From IMG/VR virus record IMGVR_UViG_2671180454_000011: DNA of 10,277 nucleotides; one strand, given 5' to 3'. This document shows positions 1 to 10,277 of this stretch, one piece after another. The position numbers were made by a program, and so were the translations under genes. The notes below the pieces were generated by a model. It was not told where the DNA came from. It was given only the letters and a program-made list of their open reading frames with translations, and did no database searches. Every line of letters begins with the position of its first letter. Position 1 is the first letter of the stretch. Origin of the DNA: a virus. Taxonomy: Duplodnaviria > Heunggongvirae > Uroviricota > Caudoviricetes.

Positions 1-2
1 TT

Positions 3-320
3 CATCGTGCAGTTAAATACCTTCCACCAGCAGGCCATAACGGGCTTACTATTCGTTCACCGTTTCCTAGTGCAGTCGTTGTTTTTAAAAAAGAACCACG
101 TAAGCACGAAATTACACAGACGGTTTGCTGTGGTGACACGCTATTACCGTTAACCATCATTAACAGAGGAGGCTTGAGAGGAAGACCCACCATTTACCCA
201 CCTGAGACGCTCGACAGCTTCATAAAACTATACAGGCAAGGAAAACCCATTAAGTGCATTGCAGATGCTCTCAGAATGCCTCTGAGCACGTCATACAGGA
301 TTGCTCAAAGGTTGAGCTAA
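3..320 (+). CDS. 3' part of a gene entering from upstream of the window; product ends in a resolvase/invertase-type HTH DNA-binding motif
   Basis: Manual translation of + frame 3 gives 105 sense codons from the window edge to TAA 318-320 in AT-rich DNA (…TVCCGDTLLPLTIINRGGLRGRPTIYPPETLDSFIKLYRQGKPIKCIADALRMPLSTSYRIAQRLS*). Absent from the ORF track because it has no in-window start codon. The GRP-(linker)-…G.P…IA..L….STSYRI pattern matches the C-terminal DNA-binding domain of serine recombinases (Hin/Gin/Tn3 resolvase) from memory; residues before GRP do not obviously match a resolvase catalytic domain. Confidence 0.5.
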   Translation, partial: HRAVKYLPPAGHNGLTIRSPFPSAVVVFKKEPRKHEITQTVCCGDTLLPLTIINRGGLRGRPTIYPPETLDSFIKLYRQGKPIKCIADALRMPLSTSYRIAQRLS

Positions 321-411
321 AATTCTCATAAATATGGTCATTTACAAGATAGGTGATTCAGATATTAAGAAGTATCCCTGTGAACAATAAATGACCAATC
401 AGTAATTATTC

Positions 412-442
412 TGTGAAATAATTGTTGCAATTTATAATCACA
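412..442. promoter_or_regulatory. 31-bp imperfect palindrome TGTGAAATAATTGTTGCAATTTATAATCACA (perfect core AATTG-TTG-CAATT); candidate operator or recombination site; contains a perfect TATAAT hexamer at 433-438
   Basis: Read directly: TGTGA … TCACA outer arms and a perfect 13-bp central palindrome, inside the 380-bp non-coding gap between the HTH gene and the rep-like gene. Confidence 0.3.
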
Positions 443-519
443 TCTGTTATAGTTTTTATATGGGGTGATAAAAGAACTCAGAACATTAAGAGGTTACAAC
501 GTTGGGAGGCGTCAGGGTA

Positions 520-547
520 TTGACAGATTTTCACGGCCTCTTATTCA
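520..547 (+). promoter_or_regulatory. Putative sigma70-type promoter TTGACA-N16-TATTCA oriented toward the rep-like gene
   Basis: Perfect -35 hexamer TTGACA at 520-525, -10-like TATTCA at 542-547; about 150 bp upstream of ATG 703. The -10 is imperfect. Confidence 0.25.
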
Positions 548-702
548 ATCAAGGCTTTTCCTTTTGCTGTTAATACTCGCGTAATCGCTCAGGCTTCTGA
601 GTTCCTTTATCAGTCCATCTTCTAATTAATTCACTCCCTCTGGGGTTGGTCACTATACGTGGTCAGCCCTTTCTTTGTTTTATTTTTAAAAAGGAAAATA
701 TA

Positions 703-1656
703 ATGGAAAAATTCCACATGTTTGATGACCGTATTTATCAGATGACTAATGGCGTTAAAGCTGCCGACCGTATTATTTACACTGTCATGTTGAATGAACA
801 AAAGTTTTATCACGATAAGGGGCAATATTATACCCCTTCATATGCTCATCTTGGTCAGTATGCTGGAATCACAAGAACATCCGTGATTGCATGTATGAAA
901 CAACTTGAGGCACATGGTTTAATCAAGAAAACTAACGTTGCAAGCAATCAGTGTGTTATTAAAGTTTATTCACTTGATGAAGTACCGGAGGTTTTAACAG
1001 AGCTTACAGCTAAGGAAGCCAGAAAGGCAAAGCTGGAGTCTAAAGTTACTCAGTCAGTCAAGAAAGATGACCCACTGAGTCAAAATTCTTTACCCACTGA
1101 GTCAAAATTTTTTACTCAGTCAGTCAAAATCTTTGACACGTATAATAACAGTAATAACAAGAAAGAACTTATTAATAACAATAAAGAAGATGACTTTGAA
1201 GAAGAATATTTTAAGAAGGGAGCTTCGCTCTGTGATTCACATGAATGTGATTCTCTTGGTATTGAAGAGGCTATTAAAGAGACTGTTAAAACATCTGACT
1301 TAGATGACCTTGATAGTGAAGCTGCTAAAGAGGTCGTTAAAAAGGAAGATAAAATCTCTGATGTGATTGCTAGTAGTGACCATAAAAACACACAGTGCCC
1401 CGCCACTGATGATGAATTACCGGATGTTGACCTTGATGATGAAGAAGACCCTGAAAAGGAATTGAAACGTGAACAGCGTAAAGCAGAAATTAAAGAAAGA
1501 TTCAGAAATGCGAAGCTAAAGAACAAGGTTAGTGACCTCGATGACTTTGATGATAGTGACGATGATTTTACTTTTACACCAAAAAAGAAAACTCACACCG
1601 AGCCAAAGAAAGAAAAAGTTAAAGTCAGACGTGTTTATGGTGGAGGAATGTTTTAA
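703..1656 (+). CDS. Replication-initiator-like protein: N-terminal winged-helix/HTH-like domain (…YAHLGQYAGITRTSVIACMKQLEAHGLIKK…) followed by ~200 aa of acidic low-complexity sequence; iterons lie inside the gene
   Basis: ORF-track ORF 646..1656 (TTG start); ATG at 703 preferred because AAAGGAAAA lies 6-14 nt upstream. The N-terminal ~100 aa resemble wHTH DNA-binding domains of phage/plasmid initiators (lambda O-like or replisome-organizer-like) from memory; the rest is D/E/K-rich (DLDDLDSE, PDVDLDDEED, SDLDDFDDSDDDF). Functional call is inference from domain look and the internal iterons. Confidence 0.75.
   Translation: MEKFHMFDDRIYQMTNGVKAADRIIYTVMLNEQKFYHDKGQYYTPSYAHLGQYAGITRTSVIACMKQLEAHGLIKKTNVASNQCVIKVYSLDEVPEVLTELTAKEARKAKLESKVTQSVKKDDPLSQNSLPTESKFFTQSVKIFDTYNNSNNKKELINNNKEDDFEEEYFKKGASLCDSHECDSLGIEEAIKETVKTSDLDDLDSEAAKEVVKKEDKISDVIASSDHKNTQCPATDDELPDVDLDDEEDPEKELKREQRKAEIKERFRNAKLKNKVSDLDDFDDSDDDFTFTPKKKTHTEPKKEKVKVRRVYGGGMF
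1046..1133. repeat. Four tandem 22-bp iterons (A-B-B-A): TTACTCAGTCAGTCAAGAAAGA / TGACCCACTGAGTCAAAATTCT / TTACCCACTGAGTCAAAATTTT / TTACTCAGTCAGTCAAAATCTT
   Basis: Hexamer AGTCAA occurs at 1056, 1078, 1100, 1122 (exact 22-bp spacing, counted by hand). Units 1 and 4 are near-identical, as are units 2 and 3. Located within the rep-like ORF. Confidence 0.75.
1134..1200. other. AT-rich tract directly 3' of the iterons with three copies of TAATAACA (1143, 1152, 1173); candidate DNA-unwinding element of an intragenic origin
   Basis: Read directly; position relative to the iterons mirrors the ori-lambda layout (iterons followed by AT-rich region inside gene O). Confidence 0.4.
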
Positions 1657-1952
1657 TGAAAACTTATAATGGCGAGAGAAAATACCGTGACTATTTACTC
1701 AGACGTTACAGCATTTCTCGTGAAGGTTACTTGATGAAAGATACTCACGGGGAAGTTTACCGGATTCGACCGAAGAAAGAAGGGAGGGATTATTATTTCG
1801 TCGATGATGTGACAGATTTAAAGATTGACGCTTTGAAGTTTGCGGTGCTGTATCATTACGATTTATGGGATTCAGTCCACCAGCTACGATTAAAAGACGG
1901 TGACCCCGGTAATCTGAGGGCCACCAATATTATCAAGGGAAAGTGCCGGTAA
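1656..1952 (+). CDS. Hypothetical 98-aa protein, translationally coupled to the rep-like gene (TAATG overlap); faint resemblance to AP2/NUMOD4-HNH-like small phage proteins
   Basis: ORF track; ATG 1656 overlaps the rep TAA stop; GGTGGAGGA SD about 10 nt upstream. The motifs YSISREGYL and KDGDPGNLRATN loosely recall NUMOD4 and HNH segments, but the catalytic His placement does not fit, so this is not a confident call. Confidence 0.65.
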   Translation: MKTYNGERKYRDYLLRRYSISREGYLMKDTHGEVYRIRPKKEGRDYYFVDDVTDLKIDALKFAVLYHYDLWDSVHQLRLKDGDPGNLRATNIIKGKCR

Positions 1953-1961
1953 GGCCACCAG

Positions 1962-2138
1962 CTATTTATTTACTGAAATCTCTATCTCAACACGAAGAAG
2001 TTTAAGTCGAATTGTAAGCTTTGTCTTTTTTGTAATGACTCGATTCATAACGCAAAACACCAATAGCACAATAAATACCGCAAAGCCCAACGAGCTAAAA
2101 CGATGAGATTCAATAATTGCTGTGAAAAAATCATGCAT
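1962..2138 (-). CDS. Small single-pass membrane protein (58 aa: MHDFFTAIIESHRFSSLGFAVFIVLLVFCVMNRVITKKTKLTIRLKLLRVEIEISVNK)
   Basis: Minus-strand ORF 1962..2168 in the track (GTG start); the first ATG (plus 2136-2138) has AAGGA 7 nt upstream and a TTGTCA-N17-TACTAT promoter further upstream. One hydrophobic helix followed by a basic stretch. Lies convergent to the rep operon, with only 9 bp between the two stop codons. Confidence 0.45.
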   Translation of the reverse strand: MHDFFTAIIESHRFSSLGFAVFIVLLVFCVMNRVITKKTKLTIRLKLLRVEIEISVNK

Positions 2139-2188
2139 TAATTTTCCTTTTGTGAAAGGAAACAGCACCTGTATCAGCCCCTACAACC

Positions 2189-2217
2189 ATAGTATCATGT
2201 AAATGAGGTACTGACAA
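2189..2217 (-). promoter_or_regulatory. Putative promoter for the minus-strand small membrane-protein gene (TTGTCA-N17-TACTAT on the minus strand)
   Basis: Reverse complement of plus 2212-2217 (TGACAA) gives the -35 TTGTCA; reverse complement of plus 2189-2194 (ATAGTA) gives the -10 TACTAT; spacer is 17 nt. Confidence 0.3.
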
Positions 2218-2239
2218 TATGTTAAATAGATGTTAAGAT
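2211..2239 (+). promoter_or_regulatory. Putative promoter for the small-gene operon starting at 2276 (CTGACA-N17-TAAGAT); its -35 overlaps the -35 of the divergent minus-strand promoter
   Basis: Read directly: -35 at 2211-2216, -10 at 2234-2239, 17-nt spacer; ATG 2276 is ~30 nt downstream of the predicted start site. Confidence 0.3.
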
Positions 2240-2275
2240 TGTAGTATGAGTAAGAGATTTAAGGAGATTTTTACA

Positions 2276-2566
2276 ATGACTCACACAGTTACGCGCCTTT
2301 TGCCAGAGGCATTTGAACGACTGGCAGCAATCAAAGCCAAATATCCCGATATGAAGCACACAGCGCTTGTTGGGGAGATTTTAAAAGAGTCGGTAAACCT
2401 TAGCCCTTTCGATAACGTTAAGGGCGTCGCAGAGGGTTCTAAGGCCATCAGAATCACAACGGGCCAACTGGAACTACTCAAAGCACAGTCCGCAGTAGCA
2501 GGTTGCTCAATGATTCAGGTGTTAAGCGCTAAGGTCCATCAACTGGCGGATAGATTGGAGGTTTAA
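2276..2566 (+). CDS. Small DNA-binding protein with two consecutive ribbon-helix-helix-like segments (96 aa)
   Basis: ORF track 2246..2566; ATG 2276 preferred (AAGGAG SD 9 nt upstream). Segment 1 TVTRLLPEAFERLAAIKAKYPDMKHTALVGEILKESV and segment 2 IRITTGQLELLKAQSAVAGCSMIQVLSAKVHQLADRL each fit the RHH pattern of a beta-strand, helix, G-x-S/T-type turn and helix (Arc/CopG/MetJ-like), judged from memory. Confidence 0.7.
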   Translation: MTHTVTRLLPEAFERLAAIKAKYPDMKHTALVGEILKESVNLSPFDNVKGVAEGSKAIRITTGQLELLKAQSAVAGCSMIQVLSAKVHQLADRLEV

Positions 2567-2787
2567 TGTGTTATAGGTTCCAATATTCCACACTTGGCCG
2601 CCACCTAATCAGACAGAATTTAGCAGATGCTGAATTTGAAGATGTGACCCTCAAAGCAAACAAACGATTAAAACCCTCTCAAATCCACCAGCTTAAACAC
2701 GAATTAAAGCCACTGGTAATACTCGACTATAACGACCCTGAACAGCTTGAGCAGGGAATTAAGCTTATTTCTGAATGGGGTGCTTGA
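2566..2787 (+). CDS. Hypothetical 73-aa protein, translationally coupled (TAATG) to the RHH-like gene
   Basis: ORF track; ATG 2566 overlaps the upstream TAA stop; GGAGG SD at 2556-2560. Confidence 0.65.
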   Translation: MCYRFQYSTLGRHLIRQNLADAEFEDVTLKANKRLKPSQIHQLKHELKPLVILDYNDPEQLEQGIKLISEWGA

Positions 2788-3002
2788 TGAAAACTATCAC
2801 AGTACAACTTCAGACTAATAAAGCATTTCGTTATTTTGAAAACTTGCTTGAGTTATACGAAGGATGGGGAAGTATCCACGGCAAAGATGATATCTATCTT
2901 CACTTGTCAGCCCCTAACTATTCTCTGAAGACTCCGGTTAAGCAAAGCTGGTTAAAAGACTACGGTCACCAGATGGGGCTATTAGTCTCAGACTTGAGCT
3001 AA
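2787..3002 (+). CDS. Hypothetical 71-aa protein, start overlapping the upstream stop (TGATG); alternative start at ATG 2775
   Basis: ORF track 2775..3002; ATG 2787 overlaps the upstream TGA by 1 nt and has a G-rich SD-like stretch upstream; ATG 2775 lacks one. Confidence 0.6.
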   Translation: MKTITVQLQTNKAFRYFENLLELYEGWGSIHGKDDIYLHLSAPNYSLKTPVKQSWLKDYGHQMGLLVSDLS

Positions 3003-3044
3003 AAACAGCAAAACATATCTCTCAGGCTTTACCAGACGCACCAG

Positions 3045-3119
3045 AAACGTTTTTAAGCCCCTAATCAGGGTAACTTAGGGAATCGCCTTAAGTGGTCTAA
3101 AAAAGGGGTTAAAACGTCT
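3045..3119. promoter_or_regulatory. Nested inverted repeats in the 146-bp intergenic gap: AAACGTTTTTAAGCCCC (3045-3061) vs GGGGTTAAAACGT (3105-3117), enclosing hairpin CCCTAA-N10-TTAGGG (3058-3080)
   Basis: Read directly; AAACGTTT (3045-3052) is itself a perfect 8-bp palindrome. No classical GC stem plus U-run terminator is evident. Confidence 0.3.
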
Positions 3120-3148
3120 TAGAATGCGATACAGGAAGGATTTTAAAA

Positions 3149-3454
3149 ATGAATTACCCAATGCAAATTATGGTTGACCAAGAAACCATGAATTGGTTGA
3201 TTGACCTGAACAGGTCGGGCTTTAATATCTATTTCATGCATTGTTTTGAAGCGTCAACGTATATTGACAAGCATATAATCAACGAAATTAAACTTGGTGA
3301 CTATGTTCACAAGCTGGAAGTAACAGACCCATACAATAAGCGCTTTATCATTGAAGAGTGCAATCGACTTGATTTAAGCCCTGAGCAATTATTGAAGCTG
3401 AATGTATTCTTGACCTATCAGAATGAATTAAACCCTTACAGCGAGGTGATGTAA
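3149..3454 (+). CDS. Hypothetical 101-aa protein
   Basis: ORF track; ATG 3149 preceded by AGGAAGG. Confidence 0.7.
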   Translation: MNYPMQIMVDQETMNWLIDLNRSGFNIYFMHCFEASTYIDKHIINEIKLGDYVHKLEVTDPYNKRFIIEECNRLDLSPEQLLKLNVFLTYQNELNPYSEVM

Positions 3455-3531
3455 TGACACTCGTTATTCTCTGGATGACTTTAGGGTTATTTGTTGGTTG
3501 CTGGGTAGGTAATACGGTAAATAAGAATTGA
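3454..3531 (+). CDS. 25-aa hydrophobic micro-ORF (MTLVILWMTLGLFVGCWVGNTVNKN), translationally coupled (TAATG) to the 101-aa gene
   Basis: Not in the ORF track (too short). ATG 3454-3456 overlaps the upstream TAA stop; GAGGTG SD 5-10 nt upstream; product is one predicted TM helix. Manual translation to TGA 3529-3531. Confidence 0.4.
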   Translation: MTLVILWMTLGLFVGCWVGNTVNKN

Positions 3532-3650
3532 TGTTACCAATCTGTTAAAAAGCTGTTGACAAATAACCTTAAGCATGAGATGATGGTAATAGGGAAGAGC
3601 AACTCTTCCTGAATTAAACTATTAATCATTCTACATCAATGATAGTTATT

Positions 3651-3704
3651 CTGAAAGGTGCAATGCTTTTCGCTACATGACCTTTCAGGTTAGTCTGAGA
3701 GGTC
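3651..3704 (+). promoter_or_regulatory. Mutually exclusive stem-loops: CTGAAAGGT (3651-3659) or CTGAGAGGTC (3695-3704) can each pair with GACCTTTCAG (3679-3688); candidate RNA switch/attenuator-like element
   Basis: Read directly: a 9-bp perfect stem with 20-nt loop versus a 10-bp stem (1 mismatch) with 6-nt loop, sharing the central arm. Lies in a 398-bp non-coding region downstream of a TTGACA hexamer (3556-3561) and of hairpin GGAAGAG-caa-CTCTTCC (3593-3609). Confidence 0.35.
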
Positions 3705-3733
3705 ATCTCGAAAAGTACTCTTGTTCATTCGTT

Positions 3734-3755
3734 TGAATCCTTTTTGAATCCTTTA
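3734..3755. repeat. Tandem direct repeat TGAATCCTTTT / TGAATCCTTTA
   Basis: Read directly: two adjacent 11-bp units, 10 of 11 identical. Confidence 0.5.
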
Positions 3756-3784
3756 GATGTTTTAATTTCTTCACCTTATGAATG

Positions 3785-3810
3785 GCCCTTTATAAGAAAT
3801 TATCTAGGGC
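3785..3810. promoter_or_regulatory. Imperfect palindrome GCCCT-TTATAAGAAATTATCT-AGGGC about 120 bp upstream of the 236-aa gene; candidate operator
   Basis: Read directly: 5-bp perfect outer arms with partial inner symmetry (TATAA/TTAT). Confidence 0.25.
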
Positions 3811-3929
3811 TATTCAGCTTTTAAAAAGCATACTTGGCAAACCGCCTTTTAAGTCTCTTCTAAGTTTAGATAGGCTGTCAGGTGTGCTTTTTAAAAACTG
3901 AAACACTTCCGCTTAGAAGAGGAAAAGCA

Positions 3930-4640
3930 ATGACAAATGATATTTACATTAATGGCAAAGTGATTGATAGCTTCAGTGACTGGTCGCCACAGACTGAACA
4001 TCCAGCTATCACTATTCAGCGTAAAGAGCATGACAAGCGTATTGAGCTTGAGCAATCGCTAAAGATGTCACCAAAAACAACCATCTTTGTGTCTCCTGAG
4101 CCTCAAGAGATGCCTGATATTTGCAAGAGTGAAGCATTACTTGAGCTTGAAAAGAAATATTACCAACTGCTGAAAGAACAGCGCCTTAGATTAGATGACG
4201 CTTACAGCAAAGTTACCTTGATGCAATCAGCTATTGAGCCGTCAGAATTTGAGATTCAGGATGAATTGTCACAGAAACCATTTGTCTATTACCAATACGA
4301 AGATAATGATGGTTTTGGTACTTTTCAAGAAAACGTCGCAGCCGTGATTAGTAGTCTTCCTGCTGGACATCGAATTGTGAAGATGGTTAAGGCATCAAGA
4401 GGTGCTGGTCAGTTTATTTACATGACTAATAAGAGCGATGAAGAACTCGCTGAAATTGCTAGACAGAACATCTTGGCATCACGTAACAAGCAACTTGATA
4501 ATGTTAAGTTGTATCTCTCAAGAGAGCTTCAGGCTATGAAAGAGCTTGTGAAAGAATATGAAGATGCTAAGAAGATTGCTATGCAGGCTGATATTGAGCA
4601 GCTTACGAAGATTTCTAGCAAATATGCAAAGGCTATTTAA
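3930..4640 (+). CDS. Hypothetical 236-aa protein with a helical, charged (coiled-coil-like) C-terminal third
   Basis: ORF track 3882..4640 (GTG start); ATG 3930 preferred (AGAAGAGGA SD 7 nt upstream). No family recognised. Confidence 0.75.
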   Translation: MTNDIYINGKVIDSFSDWSPQTEHPAITIQRKEHDKRIELEQSLKMSPKTTIFVSPEPQEMPDICKSEALLELEKKYYQLLKEQRLRLDDAYSKVTLMQSAIEPSEFEIQDELSQKPFVYYQYEDNDGFGTFQENVAAVISSLPAGHRIVKMVKASRGAGQFIYMTNKSDEELAEIARQNILASRNKQLDNVKLYLSRELQAMKELVKEYEDAKKIAMQADIEQLTKISSKYAKAI

Positions 4641-4664
4641 TTAATAATTAAAAGGTGGTGGTGA

Positions 4665-4871
4665 ATGATTGATTTAACAGAACGCTATGAGCTTATTAAA
4701 GCAATTAGTGAACGATTGAAAGAACAACCCAACAAACCAAAACGAATCAAATCATTCACCTCCTCTAAGCAAAAGAATAGAATCAGGAAAATAGCTAAGT
4801 GGTGTCTTGATAAATTACCAAGTGATTGTCAGATTGTTGGTGAAGATGGTAATTATTATCTGGTTAGGTAA
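4665..4871 (+). CDS. Hypothetical 68-aa basic protein
   Basis: ORF track; AGGTGG SD 8 nt upstream of ATG 4665. Confidence 0.6.
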   Translation: MIDLTERYELIKAISERLKEQPNKPKRIKSFTSSKQKNRIRKIAKWCLDKLPSDCQIVGEDGNYYLVR

Positions 4872-4969
4872 CAAGATTGGTTGGGTGAAAATCTACGGGA
4901 GAGATTATCGAGTGATATCGGTAGTCTTTCCCTTTTTCGTATATGAACACTTAAAGAGGTGAAACATGA

Positions 4970-7150
4970 ATGAGCAAATTCACAGTTGATAGTTTTATCG
5001 TTGAACTTAGTTTCAGTGAAAACGTTATTAAGGGCTTGCAAAGAGTTGAAAAGGCAGCTTTGCAGTCAGCACAAAGAATTGAACGCAATTTGAATAGAGC
5101 GTTTAAGGTCGATACCAAGCAACTTGACAGCAATCTGACAAGTTCTTTAGGGCAGCTTGAAAGGAAGTTTAATAAGACCTTTGACAAGATTGAGCAGAGA
5201 GCAAGAAGCACAAAAGCATTTCAGTTTGCCACCAGATTTAATGACACTGTTAATCCTCCAAAACAATCAAGGCAACCACGAATTAGCGGAAACAGAGCAA
5301 TCACAGCAGCGCATAGCGTGAATATGTCTAAGCTTGGTGATATTAATCCGCTGATGGCTAAAATGTTTAAAGCACAGTATTACAGCTTAAGCGGTAAGGC
5401 TGGTAATATTGGAAGTGAAAAGTTTAACGCTGAACTTGCAAAATTAAATCAATCTCTTCGTGAAACGTTGAATAAACTCAGGTCACAGACAAAGACCGCC
5501 AGCATTAACAATACAAGCGACGCATTTAATAATCTTGCAAGCAATGCGATTAAATTATCTGGTGCATTTTACTCTGTGATGGGTGCTCTTAACGCTTACA
5601 AGGCCATTATGAATGCAGGTCTTAAACGAGATTCCGCACAGAGAGCCGCTAAGTTTGTACTTGGTGATAAAGCATCTGAAGCTGAGGTATTTATTCGAAA
5701 TTTAGCAGACAAGACAGGTCTTAATATCTCTGAAGGGCTATCAAGCTACGCTAAGTTTGCAGCAGGTGCTCAGGGTTCTATGTCACAGGAACAGACACAG
5801 GAGCTATTTGGTAATGCAACGGCTATGAGTCGCTTAATGGGGCTTTCTAACGATGAGCTAAACGGCATTTTGAGAGCATTTGAGCAGATGGCGAGCAAGG
5901 GCAAGATTCAGGCTGAGGAATTACGTGGGCAGTTAGGTGACCGTATGGCTGGTGCATTTAAGCTATTCGCTGAAGCATTGGGTATGACTGCTACAGAGCT
6001 TGATGCAGCCATGAAAAACGGGAAGGTACTTTCCGCTGATACTCTCCCTAAAGTCGCTAAACAGATGGGCTTGATGATTGATAAAGCGGGTGGCTGGGCT
6101 GAAGTCACTAAGAGCACTCAGACAGCTTTAGGTAAGTTAGCAAACAATTGGGATGATACGATGGTGAAAATCTTCTCAGGTTCACAGGATGAGCTAAACG
6201 GCTTCTTATCCAGCCTGAGTAACCTGCTTAGTGAAATGGGGATGAGTTCTTCTATCGCTGGTGATGCTATCGGTGGACTTATCGACATGCTTAAAGCTGG
6301 TGTAGATGATATTCGCGTATTCAATAACACCATTGAAGGCTGGATTTTACAGACTAAGAAGTTCTATTACAGCCTTGATGACACTAAACGAAAACTACTT
6401 GATGAAGTCGGTGATGGTTTTATCAACTTCGTCAAAGGTCTTGCTATAGCGTTATCTGCAAAGACGCTATTCAGTGCTACTACAGGGGTTATGAACCTGA
6501 CAAGAGCAATCACAACGTTAGGTACAAGAGCTAATCAGGTGGCTGGTCAGGTAGCTACTGGTAAAGGTGGTGGAAAACTGAAAGGTGTAGCTGGTGGTGT
6601 AGGTAGTGCTCTTGCAATTGGTTATGCTGATGACGGTTATGAAACAGCGTTAGCATTAGCTTCAATGATTCCACAAATCAGAGGCGTCACTCTTGGTTTA
6701 TATGCATTGAAGAAAGCACTGGATTTTATGAATCAGGAAGTAGTCAAAAACGCTAATATGCATCCGTCTGGGGTAGGTGTGGGTAGTGACTTTAATCCCG
6801 TGTATTCTGGTGACCCTAATAAACCGAATATGATTAACGAAGGATGGAGTAGAATTTTTAGTTCAATGGGTGAATTGTTTAACAATGCCACAATGAATAT
6901 TGCAAGATTCAATCATCCAGAGTTAAACAACATTAAGCAAGATTCAGCATTAACGAGTGCAGATATTCAGGGTCTGAGGGATGAAATTAGTGCTTTGAGT
7001 AAGCGTATTCAGGAGCCAGTGAAAGTTTCACTTGGTGGTCAAGTTGTCGTTCGACCAGATGAACCATCTTTCTTTACTTTCAATCAATCAGCTAATGACC
7101 AGTTCACGCAGGATATGCTCTTAAGTTCAAGCTATCCAGAGGAAGAATGA
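4970..7150 (+). CDS. Tail tape-measure-domain protein (726 aa)
   Basis: ORF track; AAGAGGTGA SD upstream of ATG 4970. Contains the conserved tape-measure core …FVLGDKASEAEVFIRNLADKTGL…ASKGKIQAEELRGQLGDRMAGAFKLFAEALGMTATELDAAMKNGKVLSADTLPKVAKQMG… recognised from memory, a coiled-coil-rich N-terminus and a Gly-rich hydrophobic middle (GKGGGKLKGVAGGVGSALAIGYADDGYE). Role as a true tail ruler is uncertain because no other tail or head genes are in the window. Confidence 0.8.
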   Translation: MSKFTVDSFIVELSFSENVIKGLQRVEKAALQSAQRIERNLNRAFKVDTKQLDSNLTSSLGQLERKFNKTFDKIEQRARSTKAFQFATRFNDTVNPPKQSRQPRISGNRAITAAHSVNMSKLGDINPLMAKMFKAQYYSLSGKAGNIGSEKFNAELAKLNQSLRETLNKLRSQTKTASINNTSDAFNNLASNAIKLSGAFYSVMGALNAYKAIMNAGLKRDSAQRAAKFVLGDKASEAEVFIRNLADKTGLNISEGLSSYAKFAAGAQGSMSQEQTQELFGNATAMSRLMGLSNDELNGILRAFEQMASKGKIQAEELRGQLGDRMAGAFKLFAEALGMTATELDAAMKNGKVLSADTLPKVAKQMGLMIDKAGGWAEVTKSTQTALGKLANNWDDTMVKIFSGSQDELNGFLSSLSNLLSEMGMSSSIAGDAIGGLIDMLKAGVDDIRVFNNTIEGWILQTKKFYYSLDDTKRKLLDEVGDGFINFVKGLAIALSAKTLFSATTGVMNLTRAITTLGTRANQVAGQVATGKGGGKLKGVAGGVGSALAIGYADDGYETALALASMIPQIRGVTLGLYALKKALDFMNQEVVKNANMHPSGVGVGSDFNPVYSGDPNKPNMINEGWSRIFSSMGELFNNATMNIARFNHPELNNIKQDSALTSADIQGLRDEISALSKRIQEPVKVSLGGQVVVRPDEPSFFTFNQSANDQFTQDMLLSSSYPEEE

Positions 7151-7157
7151 TTTAACG

Positions 7158-7998
<841 letters not shown>

Positions 7999-8020
7999 TG
8001 TGCAAAATGGCATCTGAATC

Positions 8021-8125
8021 GATCGCAGTTTGGCATTCGAATCGATCATGATTTGGCATCCATCTCCGATCACAGTTTGGCATCACAATCGATCACGATT
8101 TGGCATACTTCCGATCATTGATTGG
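8021..8125. repeat. Five direct repeats of GATC-N4-TTTGGCAT (last copy degenerate) with 22-24 bp spacing at the IS left end; candidate multiple transposase-binding sites
   Basis: GATC at 8021, 8044, 8068, 8091, 8113; TTTGGCAT at 8029, 8052, 8076, 8099; a sixth partial copy AAATGGCAT at 8005. Counted by hand. Multiple subterminal repeats are a known hallmark of IS21-family ends. Confidence 0.7.
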
Positions 8126-8201
8126 AATTCGCCAGTCACTCCGGGAATTAACTCTTTTCACCACAGTCTCCATTGCCGTGTTTAAACCAGTGGAGACGTC
8201 A

Positions 8202-9767
8202 ATGTCCAAAAAGAGAAAATCCAGGAGCACTATGGAAACTTGTTTTAAGATCCTTCAGCTCAAGTTCGATAAGAAGCTGACTAACCGTTGTATCGGACTG
8301 ACGTTACACATCAGCGCCTCAACCGTTTTTGAGGTTCTTGCCCGCTTCAAAGCCTCTTCTCTGTCATGGCCATTACCTGCGGATATATCCCATGACACGC
8401 TGGAGAAACTCATTTTCCCGCCCAAAGACACCTCTGCGTCAGAGCTTGTTATGCCTGACATGCTGTACTTCGATACGGAAATGAGAAAACCTGGCGTGAC
8501 GCGCCAACTGTTGTGGATGGAATACAAGGCACAGGCGGGTGACAAAGCGATGGGATACTCACACTTCTGCCGTTGCTACCGGAAGTGGAAAAAAACGCGA
8601 CGCCTCTCCATGCGACAGGAGCATCGTGCTGGCGAAAAGCTCTTTATCGACTTCTGTGGTCCTACGGTCCCTGTTATTAATCCGGACACCGGAGAGATAC
8701 GCCGCGTGGCAATCTTCGTGGCTGTAATGGGGGCGTCCAACTATACCTATGTTGAAGCGTGCGAAGGTCAGGACATGATGTCATGGTTAAATGCCCACAG
8801 CCGTTGCCTGACCTTCCTGGGCGGCGTACCGAAGCTGCTCATCCCCGATAACCTCAGAAGCGCAGTGAAAAAAGCCGATCGCTATGAGCCTGTCATCAAC
8901 GACAGTTATCAGGCGCTGGCTGAGCACTATGGCACGGTTATTATCCCGGCCCGCCCGCGCAAACCTAAAGATAAACCAAAAGCAGAAAACGGCGTCCTCA
9001 TCGTCGAGCGATGGCTTCTTGCCCGCATCCGTAATGAAACCTTCCACACGCTCAGGGCGCTGAATGCACGCCTTCGGGAGTTGCTGACGGACATGAATAA
9101 CCGACCAATGAAGGGATACGGTAATCAAACCCGCGCAGAACGCTTCCGCATGCTGGATGCACCAGCACTCTCTCCGCTGCCTCTGGAGCCTTATGAATAC
9201 ACGGAATACAAAGCCGTGAAGGTTGGCCCTGACTACCACGTTGAATATGCCCGTCACTGGTACTCCGTTCCACACGAACTGGTCGGTCAGCGTCTGTCAC
9301 TGAAGGTGGGGCAGTCGGTGGTACAGCTCTGGCACAAGGGGCAGTGTGTGGCGCAACATCCGCGCAGCACACATGAATATAAACACACAACCAATCCGCT
9401 TCACATGCCAGAACGCCACCGGCGGCATGGGACATGGACACCGGAACGCCTTATCGAGCAGGGAAACCGTACAGGTCCGTCCACAGGCCGGGTGGTTGAA
9501 TCCATGCTGAAAGCCAAACCCCATCCGGAGCTGGCTTACCGTGCAGTCCTGGGTCTGCTGGCACTTCAGAAAAAATACGGCCCGGAACGGCTGGAAAAGG
9601 CCTGTTACGTTGCCCTGCACTATAACGCCCCGGACAGACGCTTTATCGACAATCTGCTGCGTCATCATCGGGATAACGTTGAGCTTCCGTTATCCCGCCA
9701 GGGCGAACAACATCCGGCATATGCTTCAGAGCATGAAAACCTGCGTGGTCCTGGCTACTACCACTGA
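8202..9767 (+). CDS. istA: IS21-family transposase IstA (N-terminal HTH, DDE catalytic core)
   Basis: ORF track 8100..9767 (TTG start); ATG 8202 preferred (GGAGA SD 5 nt upstream). N-terminal HTH-like …LTNRCIGLTLHISASTVFEVL…, then a DDE-type core ending in the …PRKPKDKPKAENGV… block typical of IS21-family IstA, from memory. Confidence 0.85.
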   Translation: MSKKRKSRSTMETCFKILQLKFDKKLTNRCIGLTLHISASTVFEVLARFKASSLSWPLPADISHDTLEKLIFPPKDTSASELVMPDMLYFDTEMRKPGVTRQLLWMEYKAQAGDKAMGYSHFCRCYRKWKKTRRLSMRQEHRAGEKLFIDFCGPTVPVINPDTGEIRRVAIFVAVMGASNYTYVEACEGQDMMSWLNAHSRCLTFLGGVPKLLIPDNLRSAVKKADRYEPVINDSYQALAEHYGTVIIPARPRKPKDKPKAENGVLIVERWLLARIRNETFHTLRALNARLRELLTDMNNRPMKGYGNQTRAERFRMLDAPALSPLPLEPYEYTEYKAVKVGPDYHVEYARHWYSVPHELVGQRLSLKVGQSVVQLWHKGQCVAQHPRSTHEYKHTTNPLHMPERHRRHGTWTPERLIEQGNRTGPSTGRVVESMLKAKPHPELAYRAVLGLLALQKKYGPERLEKACYVALHYNAPDRRFIDNLLRHHRDNVELPLSRQGEQHPAYASEHENLRGPGYYH

Positions 9768-9783
9768 CAGAAGGAACAACCGT

Positions 9784-10277
9784 ATGAGTGATAATCTGTT
9801 AAACAAACTGACCCAACTGAAACTCCCGGCGATGGCCGGGAGCCTGATACGGCAACGGGAAACGCCTCAGACTTACGACGAACTGTCGTTCGAGGAAAGG
9901 CTGACACTGCTGGTTGATGACGAGCTTCTGAGCAGAGAAAACAGTCGTGTGGCACGGTTGAGAAAAAATGCCTGCCTGAAATATCAGGCAACACCGGAAG
10001 GGCTGCGTTATCCGGCCTCAAGAGGTCTGCGGGCTGAACAGATGAGGGAACTGCTGAACGGCCACTACATAATCCACAGGAAAAACCTACTGATAACCGG
10101 TCCGACAGGATGCGGTAAGAGCTGGATAGCCAATGCGCTGGGCGAACAGGCATGTCGACAGAAATACAGCGTCCGGTACTGTAGAACCGGGCGATTACTG
10201 GAACAGTTGGCTCAGGGACGTGTTGATGGCAGTTGGCTGAAATATCTGAAACAGTTGCAAAAAATACAGGTTCTAAT
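9784..10277 (+). CDS. istB: IS21-family helper ATPase IstB, 5' part (continues beyond window)
   Basis: Manual translation from ATG 9784 (AAGGA SD 9 nt upstream): MSDNLLNKLTQLKLPAMAGS…NLLITGPTGCGKSWIANALGEQA… with a Walker A motif (GPTGCGKS); open to the window end. Not in the ORF track because no stop is reached. Confidence 0.85.
   Translation, partial: MSDNLLNKLTQLKLPAMAGSLIRQRETPQTYDELSFEERLTLLVDDELLSRENSRVARLRKNACLKYQATPEGLRYPASRGLRAEQMRELLNGHYIIHRKNLLITGPTGCGKSWIANALGEQACRQKYSVRYCRTGRLLEQLAQGRVDGSWLKYLKQLQKIQVL

What the first reader, a model, noticed from the sequence alone, without database searches (positions are those of the whole stretch)
1046..1200. Origin-like iteron array embedded inside the initiator gene (A-B-B-A, exact 22-bp phasing) plus AT-rich tract
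AGTCAA recurs at 1056/1078/1100/1122. The outer units share TTACTCAGTCAGTCAA and the inner units share CCCACTGAGTCAAAATT, and three TAATAACA copies follow. The array lies just after the N-terminal wHTH-like domain coding region, the same topology as ori-lambda within gene O. The peptide encoded across the repeats is low complexity, suggesting selection acts on the DNA rather than the protein.
Basis: partly seen in the sequence, partly recalled or inferred. Interest (0 to 1): 0.55.

Follow-up and report, generated by a model that had tools for sequence, protein, structure and literature searches.

The report
Replication origin inside its initiator gene
Four evenly spaced DNA repeats plus an easily melted AT-rich stretch, lying inside the gene of a replication-initiator protein of a small E. 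coli/Shigella chromosomal island, look like that island's replication origin, an arrangement already known from phage lambda and some staphylococcal plasmids.

Summary
Four 15-16-bp imperfect palindromes start at 1046, 1068, 1090 and 1112, exactly 22 bp apart. A 77-82% AT tract with three TAATAACA copies follows.

The array lies in ORF 703-1656. Its N-terminal winged-helix domain is closest in fold and sequence profile to Vibrio PLE RepA, staphylococcal RepA_N initiators and DnaD. The repeats encode the start of a predicted disordered linker.

A 22-bp period puts the units in all three reading frames, so this is not a peptide duplication.

In 37 related loci there are three N-terminal-domain variants. 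Each carries its own four-unit, 22-23-bp array at the same codons, with no recombinants, although the C-terminal cassettes reassort freely.

Against the one diverged same-variant relative, repeat cores are 51/56 identical and spacers 18/32. Third-codon positions are conserved in the cores and AT tract but not in the domain-coding part.

Losing one unit frameshifts the gene. Gaining six keeps it in frame.

I read this as the island's origin, built like ori-lambda in gene O and like pSK41 rep. It is a new member of a known kind. Binding and replication remain untested.

Side finding: the island family has no GATC sites and looks like an undescribed PLE-like element.

The parts
703..1656 (+). Initiator gene (317 aa). 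It has an N-terminal winged-helix DNA-binding domain (about residues 1-121), a disordered linker (residues 125-244) and a C-terminal part with one predicted helix (residues 250-273) and acidic tracts.
1046..1061 (.). Iteron 1: TTACTCAGTCAGTCAA, an imperfect 15-bp palindrome plus A. It starts in reading frame 1 at codon 115.
1068..1083 (.). Iteron 2: TGACCCACTGAGTCAA. Six of its 7 symmetric positions pair. It starts in reading frame 2 at codon 122.
   Evidence: The terminator scan also flagged it as a hairpin on the minus strand.
1090..1105 (.). Iteron 3: TTACCCACTGAGTCAA. It starts in reading frame 0 at codon 130. It is identical in the diverged relative L012.
1112..1127 (.). Iteron 4: TTACTCAGTCAGTCAA. 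It starts in reading frame 1 at codon 137. Its 14-nt core is identical in L012.
1128..1200 (.). AT-rich tract and candidate DNA-unwinding element, with TAATAACA at 1143, 1152 and 1173. The 60-mer starting at 1141 is the least stable in the whole window.
   Evidence: AT content is 0.77 over the 70 nt after iteron 4, and the best 50-nt window is 0.82. Nearest-neighbour dG is -63.0 against a window mean of -78.2 (sd 5.6). Third-codon positions are 22/24 identical to L012.
516..1186 (+). Variant-specific 'specificity module': the leader, the N-terminal domain coding region, the iterons and the AT tract. DNA homology to the other two variants breaks at 516 and resumes at 1187 (variant 2) or 1241 (variant 3).
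   Evidence: Pairwise blastn against L004, L005, L007 and L009. The domain-to-iteron association holds in 37 of 37 loci.
425..453 (+). Promoter-like site TTGCAA-17-TATAGT with an extended-minus-10 TG. It is conserved in all three variants and is a candidate promoter reading through the initiator gene and the origin.
   Evidence: Consensus scans only. Function is not shown.
1656..1952 (+). 98-aa ORF whose start overlaps the initiator's stop codon (ATGA). It is conserved across variants and has unknown function. It is the only positional candidate for an initiator partner.
   Evidence: No hit in Pfam, PHROGs, NCBIfam or PDB sequences.

Best explanation
The array is the cognate binding-site cluster (iterons) of the initiator that contains it. 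Together with the adjacent AT-rich tract it forms the vegetative replication origin of an 11-12-kb integrative island of E. coli/Shigella.

Proposed mechanism:
- Dimers of the N-terminal winged-helix domain bind the four imperfect 15-bp palindromes. These sit 22 bp apart, about two helical turns, so they lie on roughly one face of the DNA.
- The bound proteins oligomerise and distort the DNA.
- The neighbouring 60-70-bp AT-rich tract (1128-1200) melts.
- The C-terminal part of the protein brings in a helicase or primase from the host or from a helper phage. The island encodes no helicase, primase or loader of its own.

The origin sits in the part of the gene that encodes a disordered, sequence-tolerant linker, so the DNA can be constrained there at little cost to the protein. 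Domain, iterons and AT tract are inherited as one specificity module.

Shown here: the repeats, their phasing and their non-randomness; their reading in three frames; the fold of the domain; the disordered linker; the lowest duplex stability; the domain-to-array co-variation; and the core-versus-spacer and synonymous-site conservation.

Inferred: binding, melting, helicase recruitment and actual origin activity.
For: 1. The array is real and non-random. The lag-22 score is 48/60, against 31.0 +/- 1.5 (maximum 37) in codon shuffles. The motif occurs only here in the window and in the L001 island.

2. The units are read in frames 1, 2, 0, 1, so the repeat is at the DNA level.

4. Known members of that fold class and lambda O have exactly this layout. 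In pSK41 Rep (319 aa), the NTD (residues 1-120) binds four Rep boxes placed centrally within rep, and the linker those boxes encode is dispensable (PMC5703833). In lambda the iterons lie at O residues 117-144 with 20/24/23-bp spacing (PMC7466680).

5. The three N-terminal variants are only 38-47% identical to one another in that domain. Each has its own four-unit, 22-23-bp array of palindromes at codons about 113-145, followed by a 76-77% AT tract. Two distant relatives (23-27% identity) have their own arrays at residues 136-167, followed by 70-73% AT.

6. The domain-to-array association holds in 13/13, 9/9 and 15/15 loci. C-terminal cassettes (KPK or VRR tails; CDSHEC and DDFLS segments) occur with all variants, so recombination is frequent next to the module but never inside it. 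Twenty-one of these loci were found through C-terminal peptide patterns, that is, blind to the array.

7. Window against L012 (72% aa identity): cores 51/56 identical and spacers 18/32 (Fisher p = 2.8e-4). Third-codon identity is 16/18 in cores and 22/24 in the AT tract, against 65/110 in the domain-coding part (p = 1.7e-4).

8. The AT tract holds the least stable 60-mer of the 10.3-kb window.

9. The downstream ORF and the C-terminal part do not co-vary with array type. The N-terminal domain is therefore the only product encoded in the variable module that could read the array.
Against: There is no experimental evidence of binding or replication.

The closest solved relative, PLE RepA, uses an intergenic origin (PMC7145576), so an intragenic origin is not a given for this lineage.

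The second least stable 60-mer (starting at 402) lies in the conserved intergenic region upstream. An origin there, with the array acting only as a control site, is not excluded.

The conservation statistics rest on a single diverged same-variant comparator (L012). E. coli copies of this variant are 98.5-99.7% identical. The even 89-90% identity over 1128-1260 could be a recombination patch rather than selection.

Domain and array are physically adjacent, so linkage alone explains part of their association.

The island copy in this window is decayed: it has an IS21-family insertion and an internal deletion in a tail gene. The origin may not be in use in this strain.

DnaA boxes are at chance level, and no partner helicase loader was identified.
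Confidence: 0.75

Rival explanations
1. The array is a control site, not the origin. The initiator binds inside its own gene to block transcription (autoregulation) or to pair copies (handcuffing). Replication starts elsewhere, for example in the AT-rich conserved intergenic region upstream.
For: The homologous PLE RepA acts at an intergenic origin (PMC7145576). The second least stable 60-mer starts at 402, in the conserved intergenic region beside a conserved promoter-like site. Iteron clusters of plasmids often serve for copy control as well.
Against: No second iteron cluster exists anywhere in the window or in the 12-kb L001 island, so an initiator-dependent origin elsewhere would have no binding sites. 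The array is followed directly by the least stable DNA of the window, which is conserved at synonymous sites. Every variant keeps the order iterons then AT tract. A control role is compatible with origin function and does not replace it.
Confidence: 0.12
2. The array is a packaging (pac) or recombination site. In this reading the repeats are bound by a terminase-like or recombinase protein for packaging or site-specific recombination. Some small-terminase genes contain their own pac site in this way.
For: Sites embedded in the gene of the protein that binds them are also known for pac sites (own knowledge). The island carries two serine recombinases. The window begins with the 3' end of a gene whose product has a resolvase-type HTH.
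Against: The protein's fold and profile matches are to replication initiators, not terminases. The array co-varies with the initiator's N-terminal domain only, while flanking genes stay homologous across variants. Four phased palindromes plus an AT tract is origin anatomy. Serine-recombinase att sites are single imperfect palindromes (own knowledge).
Confidence: 0.04
3. The array is neutral, slippage-prone repeat DNA, or an ordinary tandem duplication in a tolerant linker, with no DNA-level function.
For: The region encodes a disordered linker. Copy number varies in nature, with 3, 4 or 10 units. A neighbouring 9-bp repeat also varies.
Against: The period is not a multiple of 3, and single-unit changes destroy the gene (L022; also L011 and L021). 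Neutral slippage would therefore be costly, yet the arrays persist at four units. Cores are conserved while spacers diverge. Three unrelated repeat sequences sit at the same position with the same number, period and palindromic form, always paired with one domain type.
Confidence: 0.03

Closest known systems
pSK41-type RepA_N theta replicons of staphylococci and other Firmicutes (origin inside rep)
   Different: There is no Pfam RepA_N (PF06970) match even at E <= 1; only a weak DnaD_N hit at 8e-4, below the cut-off. The host is a Gram-negative chromosome-integrated island, not a Firmicute plasmid. In variant 1 the A-tract lies in the spacer rather than at the palindrome centre. Antisense-RNA copy control was not found or tested.
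ori-lambda within gene O of lambdoid and Stx phages
   Same: The origin lies in the middle of the initiator gene. There are four (six in Stx phages) palindromic iterons at a pitch of 20-24 bp, read in different frames, at residues 117-144 (here 115-142). An AT-rich tract lies on the 3' side. The N-terminal half binds the iterons. N-terminal domain and iterons form a type-specific module with an exchangeable C-terminal half (own knowledge of lambdoid O genes).
   Different: There is no detectable sequence relationship to lambda O (hhalign E 0.54). No P-like helicase-loader gene follows the initiator; the downstream 98-aa ORF has no known family. The spacing is exact at 22 bp rather than 20/24/23.
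RepA of Vibrio cholerae PLE phage satellites (PDB 4RO3)
   Different: The PLE origin is in a non-coding region (PMC7145576); here it is inside the gene. No other gene homology to PLE was established. The host is Escherichia/Shigella, whereas PLEs are reported as specific to V. cholerae (PMC10085698).

Membership tests
Lambdoid O / ori-lambda | Iteron cluster inside the initiator gene, between the DNA-binding half and the C-terminal half | tested here: met
   Iterons lie at codons 115-142 of 317. The confident domain runs to residue 121 and the linker is disordered from residue 125. In lambda they lie at codons 117-144 of 299.
Lambdoid O / ori-lambda | Four or more palindromic iterons at a pitch of about 20-24 bp, with an AT-rich tract on the 3' side | tested here: met
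   Four units at 22 bp that match on both strands. The next 70 nt are 77% AT and contain the least stable 60-mer of the window.
Lambdoid O / ori-lambda | Sequence homology to lambda O | tested here: not met
   hhalign of the family profile against lambda O gives probability 0.1 and E 0.54. There is no Pfam Phage_rep_O hit. The PHROG 'O-like' hits are to other families.
Lambdoid O / ori-lambda | P-like helicase loader encoded immediately downstream | tested here: not met
   The downstream ORF 1656-1952 (98 aa) has no hit in Pfam, PHROGs, NCBIfam or PDB sequences.
RepA_N replicons (pSK41 type) | N-terminal domain with the RepA_N / DnaD-NTD fold | tested here: met
RepA_N replicons (pSK41 type) | Sequence match to Pfam RepA_N (PF06970) | tested here: not met
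   No hit at E <= 1 with the isolated domain. DnaD_N scores 20 bits, below the 27-bit cut-off.
RepA_N replicons (pSK41 type) | Origin (four Rep boxes) placed centrally in rep and encoding a linker | tested here: met
   The anatomy matches the description in PMC5703833. Whether the linker is dispensable, as in pSK41, cannot be tested here.
RepA_N replicons (pSK41 type) | Semi-palindromic iterons whose half-sites converge on a poly-A tract | tested here: inconclusive
   This is clear for variant 2 (AACCAAAAATTGGTT) and variant 3 (GTGACAAAATGTCAC). In the window's variant the palindrome centre is CAC or CAG, and the A-tract (AAAATT) lies in the spacer.
PLE RepA (V. cholerae satellites) | Homology to the PLE RepA N-terminal domain | tested here: met
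PLE RepA (V. cholerae satellites) | Origin in a non-coding region; replication depends on a helper phage | tested here: not met
   The only iteron cluster is intragenic. Helper dependence cannot be tested here.
Rep_3 iteron plasmids (pSC101, F, R6K, pPS10 type) | Two-winged-helix Rep_3 initiator, iterons outside the gene, DnaA boxes at the origin | tested here: not met
   There is no Rep_3 hit. The model has a single winged-helix domain. DnaA-box matches are at chance level (11 found, 11.7 expected).

The most novel reading that the evidence does not exclude
The window belongs to an undescribed family of 11-12-kb Escherichia/Shigella islands. These are phage satellites, or satellite-like elements, distantly related to Vibrio PLEs.

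The evidence for that reading:
- They have a PLE-RepA-like initiator and a large serine recombinase, and they carry tape-measure and distal-tail (Dit-like) genes but no capsid or terminase genes.
- They are completely free of GATC sites.
- They exist as three replication-specificity (incompatibility) types, defined by swappable modules of initiator N-terminal domain plus intragenic origin.

Under this reading the origin is fired only during helper-phage infection, and the three variants exist to avoid cross-talk or phage-encoded interference.
Probability: 0.3. Interest if true: 0.65.

Novelty: new member of a known kind. Interest (0 to 1): 0.4.

Why it matters
An origin embedded in the linker-coding part of its initiator gene is a textbook arrangement, found in lambda O and in pSK41 rep. 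The finding itself is therefore an orderly new example, not a surprise.

Its value is practical and comparative. It gives a precise, testable origin and a specificity determinant for a widespread but uncharacterised island: relatives occur in 152 of 5,426 complete E. coli genomes. It extends RepA_N/PLE-RepA-like initiators with intragenic origins to enterobacterial chromosomes.

It also offers a clean natural system for studying how initiators and iterons co-evolve: three domain-iteron pairs on an otherwise shared backbone. The copy-number variants show how the reading frame limits origin evolution, since only gains or losses of three units keep the frame.

If the island proves to be a PLE-like satellite, the module would be the handle for studying its helper dependence.

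Tried and rejected
- Megablast and tblastn against phage and plasmid collections found no match.
- The search for related loci in viral contigs found nothing.
- Two genome-contig scans gave nothing, then one locus (L021). A wide alignment (A1) was too divergent to seed a scan.
- Rfam found no RNA family in the window.
- DnaA boxes are at chance level.
- I looked for extra iteron copies that could act as an operator or incompatibility locus. There are none in the window or in the L001 island. The one 3-mismatch match at 2277 is within chance.
- hhalign of the family profile against lambda O showed no relationship, so I do not file this as an O-family protein.
- NCBIfam gave no hits for any small island ORF.
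- The distant relatives L016, L018 and L020 gave weak or no arrays (L016 has only 2 x 21 bp). The intragenic array is therefore not demonstrable across all remote homologues.
- The minus-strand ORF 1116-1526 was rejected as a gene. It is the S/L-rich mirror image of the acidic and lysine-rich coding strand.
- Literature searches for this island (wrbA/ymdF, satellites with tape-measure genes, PLE-like elements in enterobacteria) found no description.

Full report
**1. The observation**

- AGTCAA occurs at 1056, 1078, 1100 and 1122.
- The repeat finder returns one four-copy family starting at 1046, 1068, 1090 and 1112, with start-to-start spacing of 22, 22 and 22. The outer copies are identical (TTACTCAGTCAGTCAA). 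The inner copies are TGACCCACTGAGTCAA and TTACCCACTGAGTCAA.
- Three TAATAACA copies follow, at 1143, 1152 and 1173.

The array is far beyond chance.
- The best lag-autocorrelation inside ORF 703-1656 is 48 matches of 60 at lag 22. In 300 codon shuffles the mean is 31.0, the sd 1.5 and the maximum 37. It is also the top score in the whole 10,277-bp window.
- A 15-mer consensus allowing 3 mismatches gives 9 matches against 0.44 expected. Eight of them are the four units read on both strands.

Each unit is therefore an imperfect 15-bp palindrome. In TGACCCACTGAGTCA, 6 of 7 symmetric positions pair. Each palindrome is followed by a 7-bp A/T-rich spacer. The outer units match the inner consensus slightly better in reverse complement, so 'A-B-B-A' is just four near-palindromes. 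The 9-mer core ACTSAGTCA occurs nowhere else in the window or in the 12-kb island of a relative.

**2. The gene that contains it**

ORF 703-1656 encodes 317 aa.
- It hits several PHROG families annotated as replication initiation protein or O-like, the best at E 1.9e-10.
- Pfam gives only sub-threshold HTH_Crp_2 and DnaD_N hits.
- An AlphaFold model built from a 13-sequence alignment is confident for residues about 10-120. This part has helices at 20-38, 47-54 and 58-70, a beta wing at 74-88 and a helix at 103-121.
- The model has pLDDT below 50 for residues 125-244, and one more predicted helix at 250-273.

The fold matches point to replication initiators.
- Foldseek agrees.
- A profile of the family hits 4ro3 by sequence at E 1.7e-4.
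- There is no detectable relationship to lambda O (hhalign E 0.54).

The iterons occupy codons 115-142 and the AT tract codons 142-166. They begin within the last confident helix (103-121) and run into the disordered linker that starts at residue 125.

**3. A DNA-level repeat, not a peptide repeat**

The units begin in reading frames 1, 2, 0 and 1. The peptide across them (VTQSVKKDDPLSQNSLPTESKFFTQSVK) repeats only where two units are 66 bp apart.

Natural variants make the same point.
- E. coli RM9088 (L022) has three units, and its gene is annotated as frameshifted.
- E. coli MDR_56 (L023) has ten units, that is four plus six, or 132 bp, and an intact 363-aa protein.
- Two variant-3 genes that have lost units (L011, L021) are also frameshifted.

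Only changes of three units at a time keep the frame.

**4. Comparative evidence**

The protein is found in Shigella sonnei and E. coli. Relatives of the region occur in 152 of 5,426 complete E. coli genomes, always on the chromosome.

I sampled 37 loci: E. coli genomes, one Logan contig, one Escherichia sp. genome and 21 metagenome contigs. The metagenome contigs were retrieved through C-terminal peptide patterns, so they were chosen blind to the array. The samples show three alternative N-terminal domains that are only 38-47% identical to one another. Each carries its own array at the same codons.
- Variant 1: 4 units at 22 bp, as in the window.
- Variant 2: 4 units at 22-23 bp, ACCCAACCAGAATTTGGTTACCT.
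- Variant 3: 4 units at 22-23 bp, AGTGACAAAATGTCAC.

The association is 13/13, 9/9 and 15/15 with no recombinant. Downstream cassettes (KPK or VRR tails; CDSHEC and DDFLS segments) occur with all three variants.

DNA homology between variants breaks at 516 and resumes at 1187 (variant 2) or 1241 (variant 3). Leader, domain, iterons and AT tract therefore form one exchangeable module, and the downstream ORF is outside it. The variant-1 array and the variant-1 domain coding region occur in the same 27-28 E. coli genomes.

Two remote relatives (23-27% identity) carry their own arrays at residues 136-167. L013 has 3 units at 23-24 bp, and L015 has 4 units at 22-23 bp. Each array is followed by 70-73% AT. 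Three still more remote proteins (L016, L018, L020) show little or nothing.

**5. Conservation pattern**

The only diverged same-variant sequence is L012 (72% aa identity).

| Region | All positions identical | Third-codon positions identical |
|---|---|---|
| Domain-coding part 703-1032 | 80% | 59% (65/110) |
| 14-nt iteron cores | 51/56 | 16/18 |
| 8-nt spacers | 18/32 | 6/11 |
| AT tract 1128-1200 | 89% | 22/24 |

The domain-coding part is 91% identical at codon positions 1 and 2, the normal protein-level pattern. Cores against spacers gives Fisher p = 2.8e-4. Cores plus AT tract against the domain, at third positions, gives p = 1.7e-4. The linker peptide is only 67% identical.

There are two cautions. 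This rests on one comparator. The even 89-90% identity over 1128-1260 could be a recombination patch.

**6. The AT tract**

The 70 nt after iteron 4 are 77% AT, against 63% for the gene, and the best 50-nt window is 82% AT. The 60-mer starting at 1141 has the weakest nearest-neighbour stability in the whole window: -63.0 kcal/mol against a mean of -78.2 (sd 5.6). All variants keep the order iterons then AT tract.

**7. Mechanism and rivals**

The best-supported reading is that this is the island's origin.
- Initiator dimers bind four phased palindromes through the winged-helix domain.
- They oligomerise and melt the adjacent AT tract.
- The C-terminal part recruits a host or helper-phage helicase.

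No helicase, primase or loader gene was found in the island. Binding, melting and recruitment are inferred, not shown.

The main rival is a control-only site with the true origin elsewhere. It is weakened because no other iteron copy exists in the island. It is not excluded, because PLE RepA uses an intergenic origin (PMC7145576) and the second least stable 60-mer lies in the conserved upstream intergenic region.

The pac-site or recombination-site reading and the neutral-repeat reading fit the data poorly. The array co-varies only with the initiator domain, its anatomy is that of an origin, and unit slippage is costly.

**8. Comparison with known systems**

Functionally the layout equals ori-lambda in gene O. 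In the lambda record the iterons lie at O codons 117-144 with spacing 20/24/23, in different frames, with an AT-rich tract on the 3' side (PMC7466680).

Structurally and architecturally the nearest precedent is pSK41 Rep. It has 319 aa. Its NTD (residues 1-120) binds four Rep boxes placed centrally within rep. The central residues 121-199 are encoded by the origin and are dispensable. Its CTD is lineage-specific (PMC5703833).

Membership in Pfam RepA_N fails by sequence but holds by fold. Homology to PLE RepA is supported at E 1.7e-4. I therefore class this as a new member of a known kind: a RepA_N-like initiator with an intragenic origin, in a Gram-negative chromosomal island.

**9. Context and side observations**

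In intact relatives the element is an 11-12-kb island between ymdF and wrbA (L001). In L012 it lies at another site. The gene order is:
- small serine recombinase;
- DNA N-6-adenine methyltransferase;
- initiator;
- small ORFs of unknown function;
- tape-measure protein;
- Dit-like baseplate protein;
- large serine recombinase.

The window's copy is decayed. The Dit-like gene has lost about 75-85 bp at 7454/7455. An IS21-family element, with roughly 23-bp terminal repeats at about 8021-8116 and its transposase gene ending at 9767 (ORF listed from 8100), is inserted from about 8000.

The island family is also devoid of GATC.
- Window 1-8000: 0 sites against 24.9 expected.
- L001 island: 0 against 43.1.
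- L012 island: 0 against 35.0.
- Distant relatives L013 and L015: 3 against 30.2, and 1 against 22.8.
- The chromosomal flanks have normal counts.

GATC avoidance is known from enterobacterial phages such as phiX174 (PMC5014478). It fits an element that replicates in bursts outside the chromosome. I found no description of this island in the searchable literature. PLEs are reported as specific to V. cholerae (PMC10085698).

**10. Verdict**

It is a new member of a known kind, of moderate interest (0.4). The more novel possibility is that this is an undescribed PLE-like satellite family with three replication-specificity types. I give that about 0.3 probability.

Noticed in passing
window 1-8000; L001 12500-24800; L012 5600-16954; L013; L015: GATC is completely absent from the island: 0 sites against 24.9, 43.1 and 35.0 expected in the window, L001 and L012. 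The distant relatives have 3 against 30.2 (L013) and 1 against 22.8 (L015). The chromosomal flanks have normal counts. The island relatives encode a DNA N-6-adenine methyltransferase just upstream of the initiator. GATC avoidance is known from enterobacterial phages (PMC5014478) and would fit burst replication outside the chromosome.
   Followed up: partly
L001 13365-24759; L012 5635-16954; window as a whole: The window is part of an 11-12-kb integrative island. In L001 it lies between ymdF and wrbA. It carries a small serine recombinase, an adenine methyltransferase, a PLE-RepA-like initiator, about 8 small unknown ORFs, a tape-measure protein, a Dit-like baseplate protein and a large serine recombinase. 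It has no capsid, terminase, helicase or primase genes. It may be an undescribed satellite-like element. I found no description in the literature searched.
   Followed up: partly
L022 1205-1292; L023 1063-1282; L011; L021: Iteron copy number varies in nature. RM9088 has 3 units and its gene is frameshifted. MDR_56 has 10 units and its gene is intact (363 aa). Variant-3 genes in L011 and L021 have lost units and are frameshifted. Only changes of three units (66-69 bp) preserve the frame.
   Followed up: yes
window 642-670 (also 587-602): A terminator-like hairpin (12 pairs, GGGGTTGGTCAC...GTGGTCAGCCC) followed by a T-run sits about 30 nt upstream of the initiator start codon, inside the variant-specific leader 516-702. 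Variants 2 and 3 have no such hairpin. It may be an attenuator or antisense-RNA target, as in pSK41-type rep control (PMC5703833). No Rfam family matches.
   Followed up: partly
window 1201-1260: The segment encoding GASLCDSHECDS contains the direct repeat TGTGATTCACATG / TGTGATTCTCTTG and an imperfect palindrome TCACAT-GA-ATGTGA at 1236-1249. It is 90% identical to L012 at all three codon positions and is shared by variants 1 and 2 but not variant 3. It could be a further origin element or a recombination junction.
   Followed up: no
window about 8000-10277: An IS21-family element is inserted at the 3' end of the Dit-like gene. It has five roughly 23-bp terminal repeats (CGATCAnnnTTTGGCAT) at about 8021-8116, an istA-like transposase gene ending at 9767 (ORF listed from 8100; rve and Mu-transposase C domains), and the start of a second gene cut by the window end.
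   Followed up: partly
window 7286-8051: The Dit-like baseplate gene is broken. About 75-85 bp are missing at 7454/7455 relative to L001 and L012, leaving two ORF fragments at 7286-7459 and 7740-8051. The island copy in this window is therefore partly decayed, although the replication module is intact.
   Followed up: partly
window 1143-1184; L003 1044-1079: The 9-bp unit TAATAACAG in the AT tract varies in copy number. L003 has two extra copies, which add NSNNSN to the protein in frame. This shows that the linker tolerates insertions.
   Followed up: no
window 1128-1142: The sequence AATCTTTGACACGTA directly after iteron 4 keeps the 22-bp phase and the TGAC half-site. It is conserved in L012 as AAACTTGACACGTA. 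It may be a fifth half-iteron at the edge of the AT tract.
   Followed up: no
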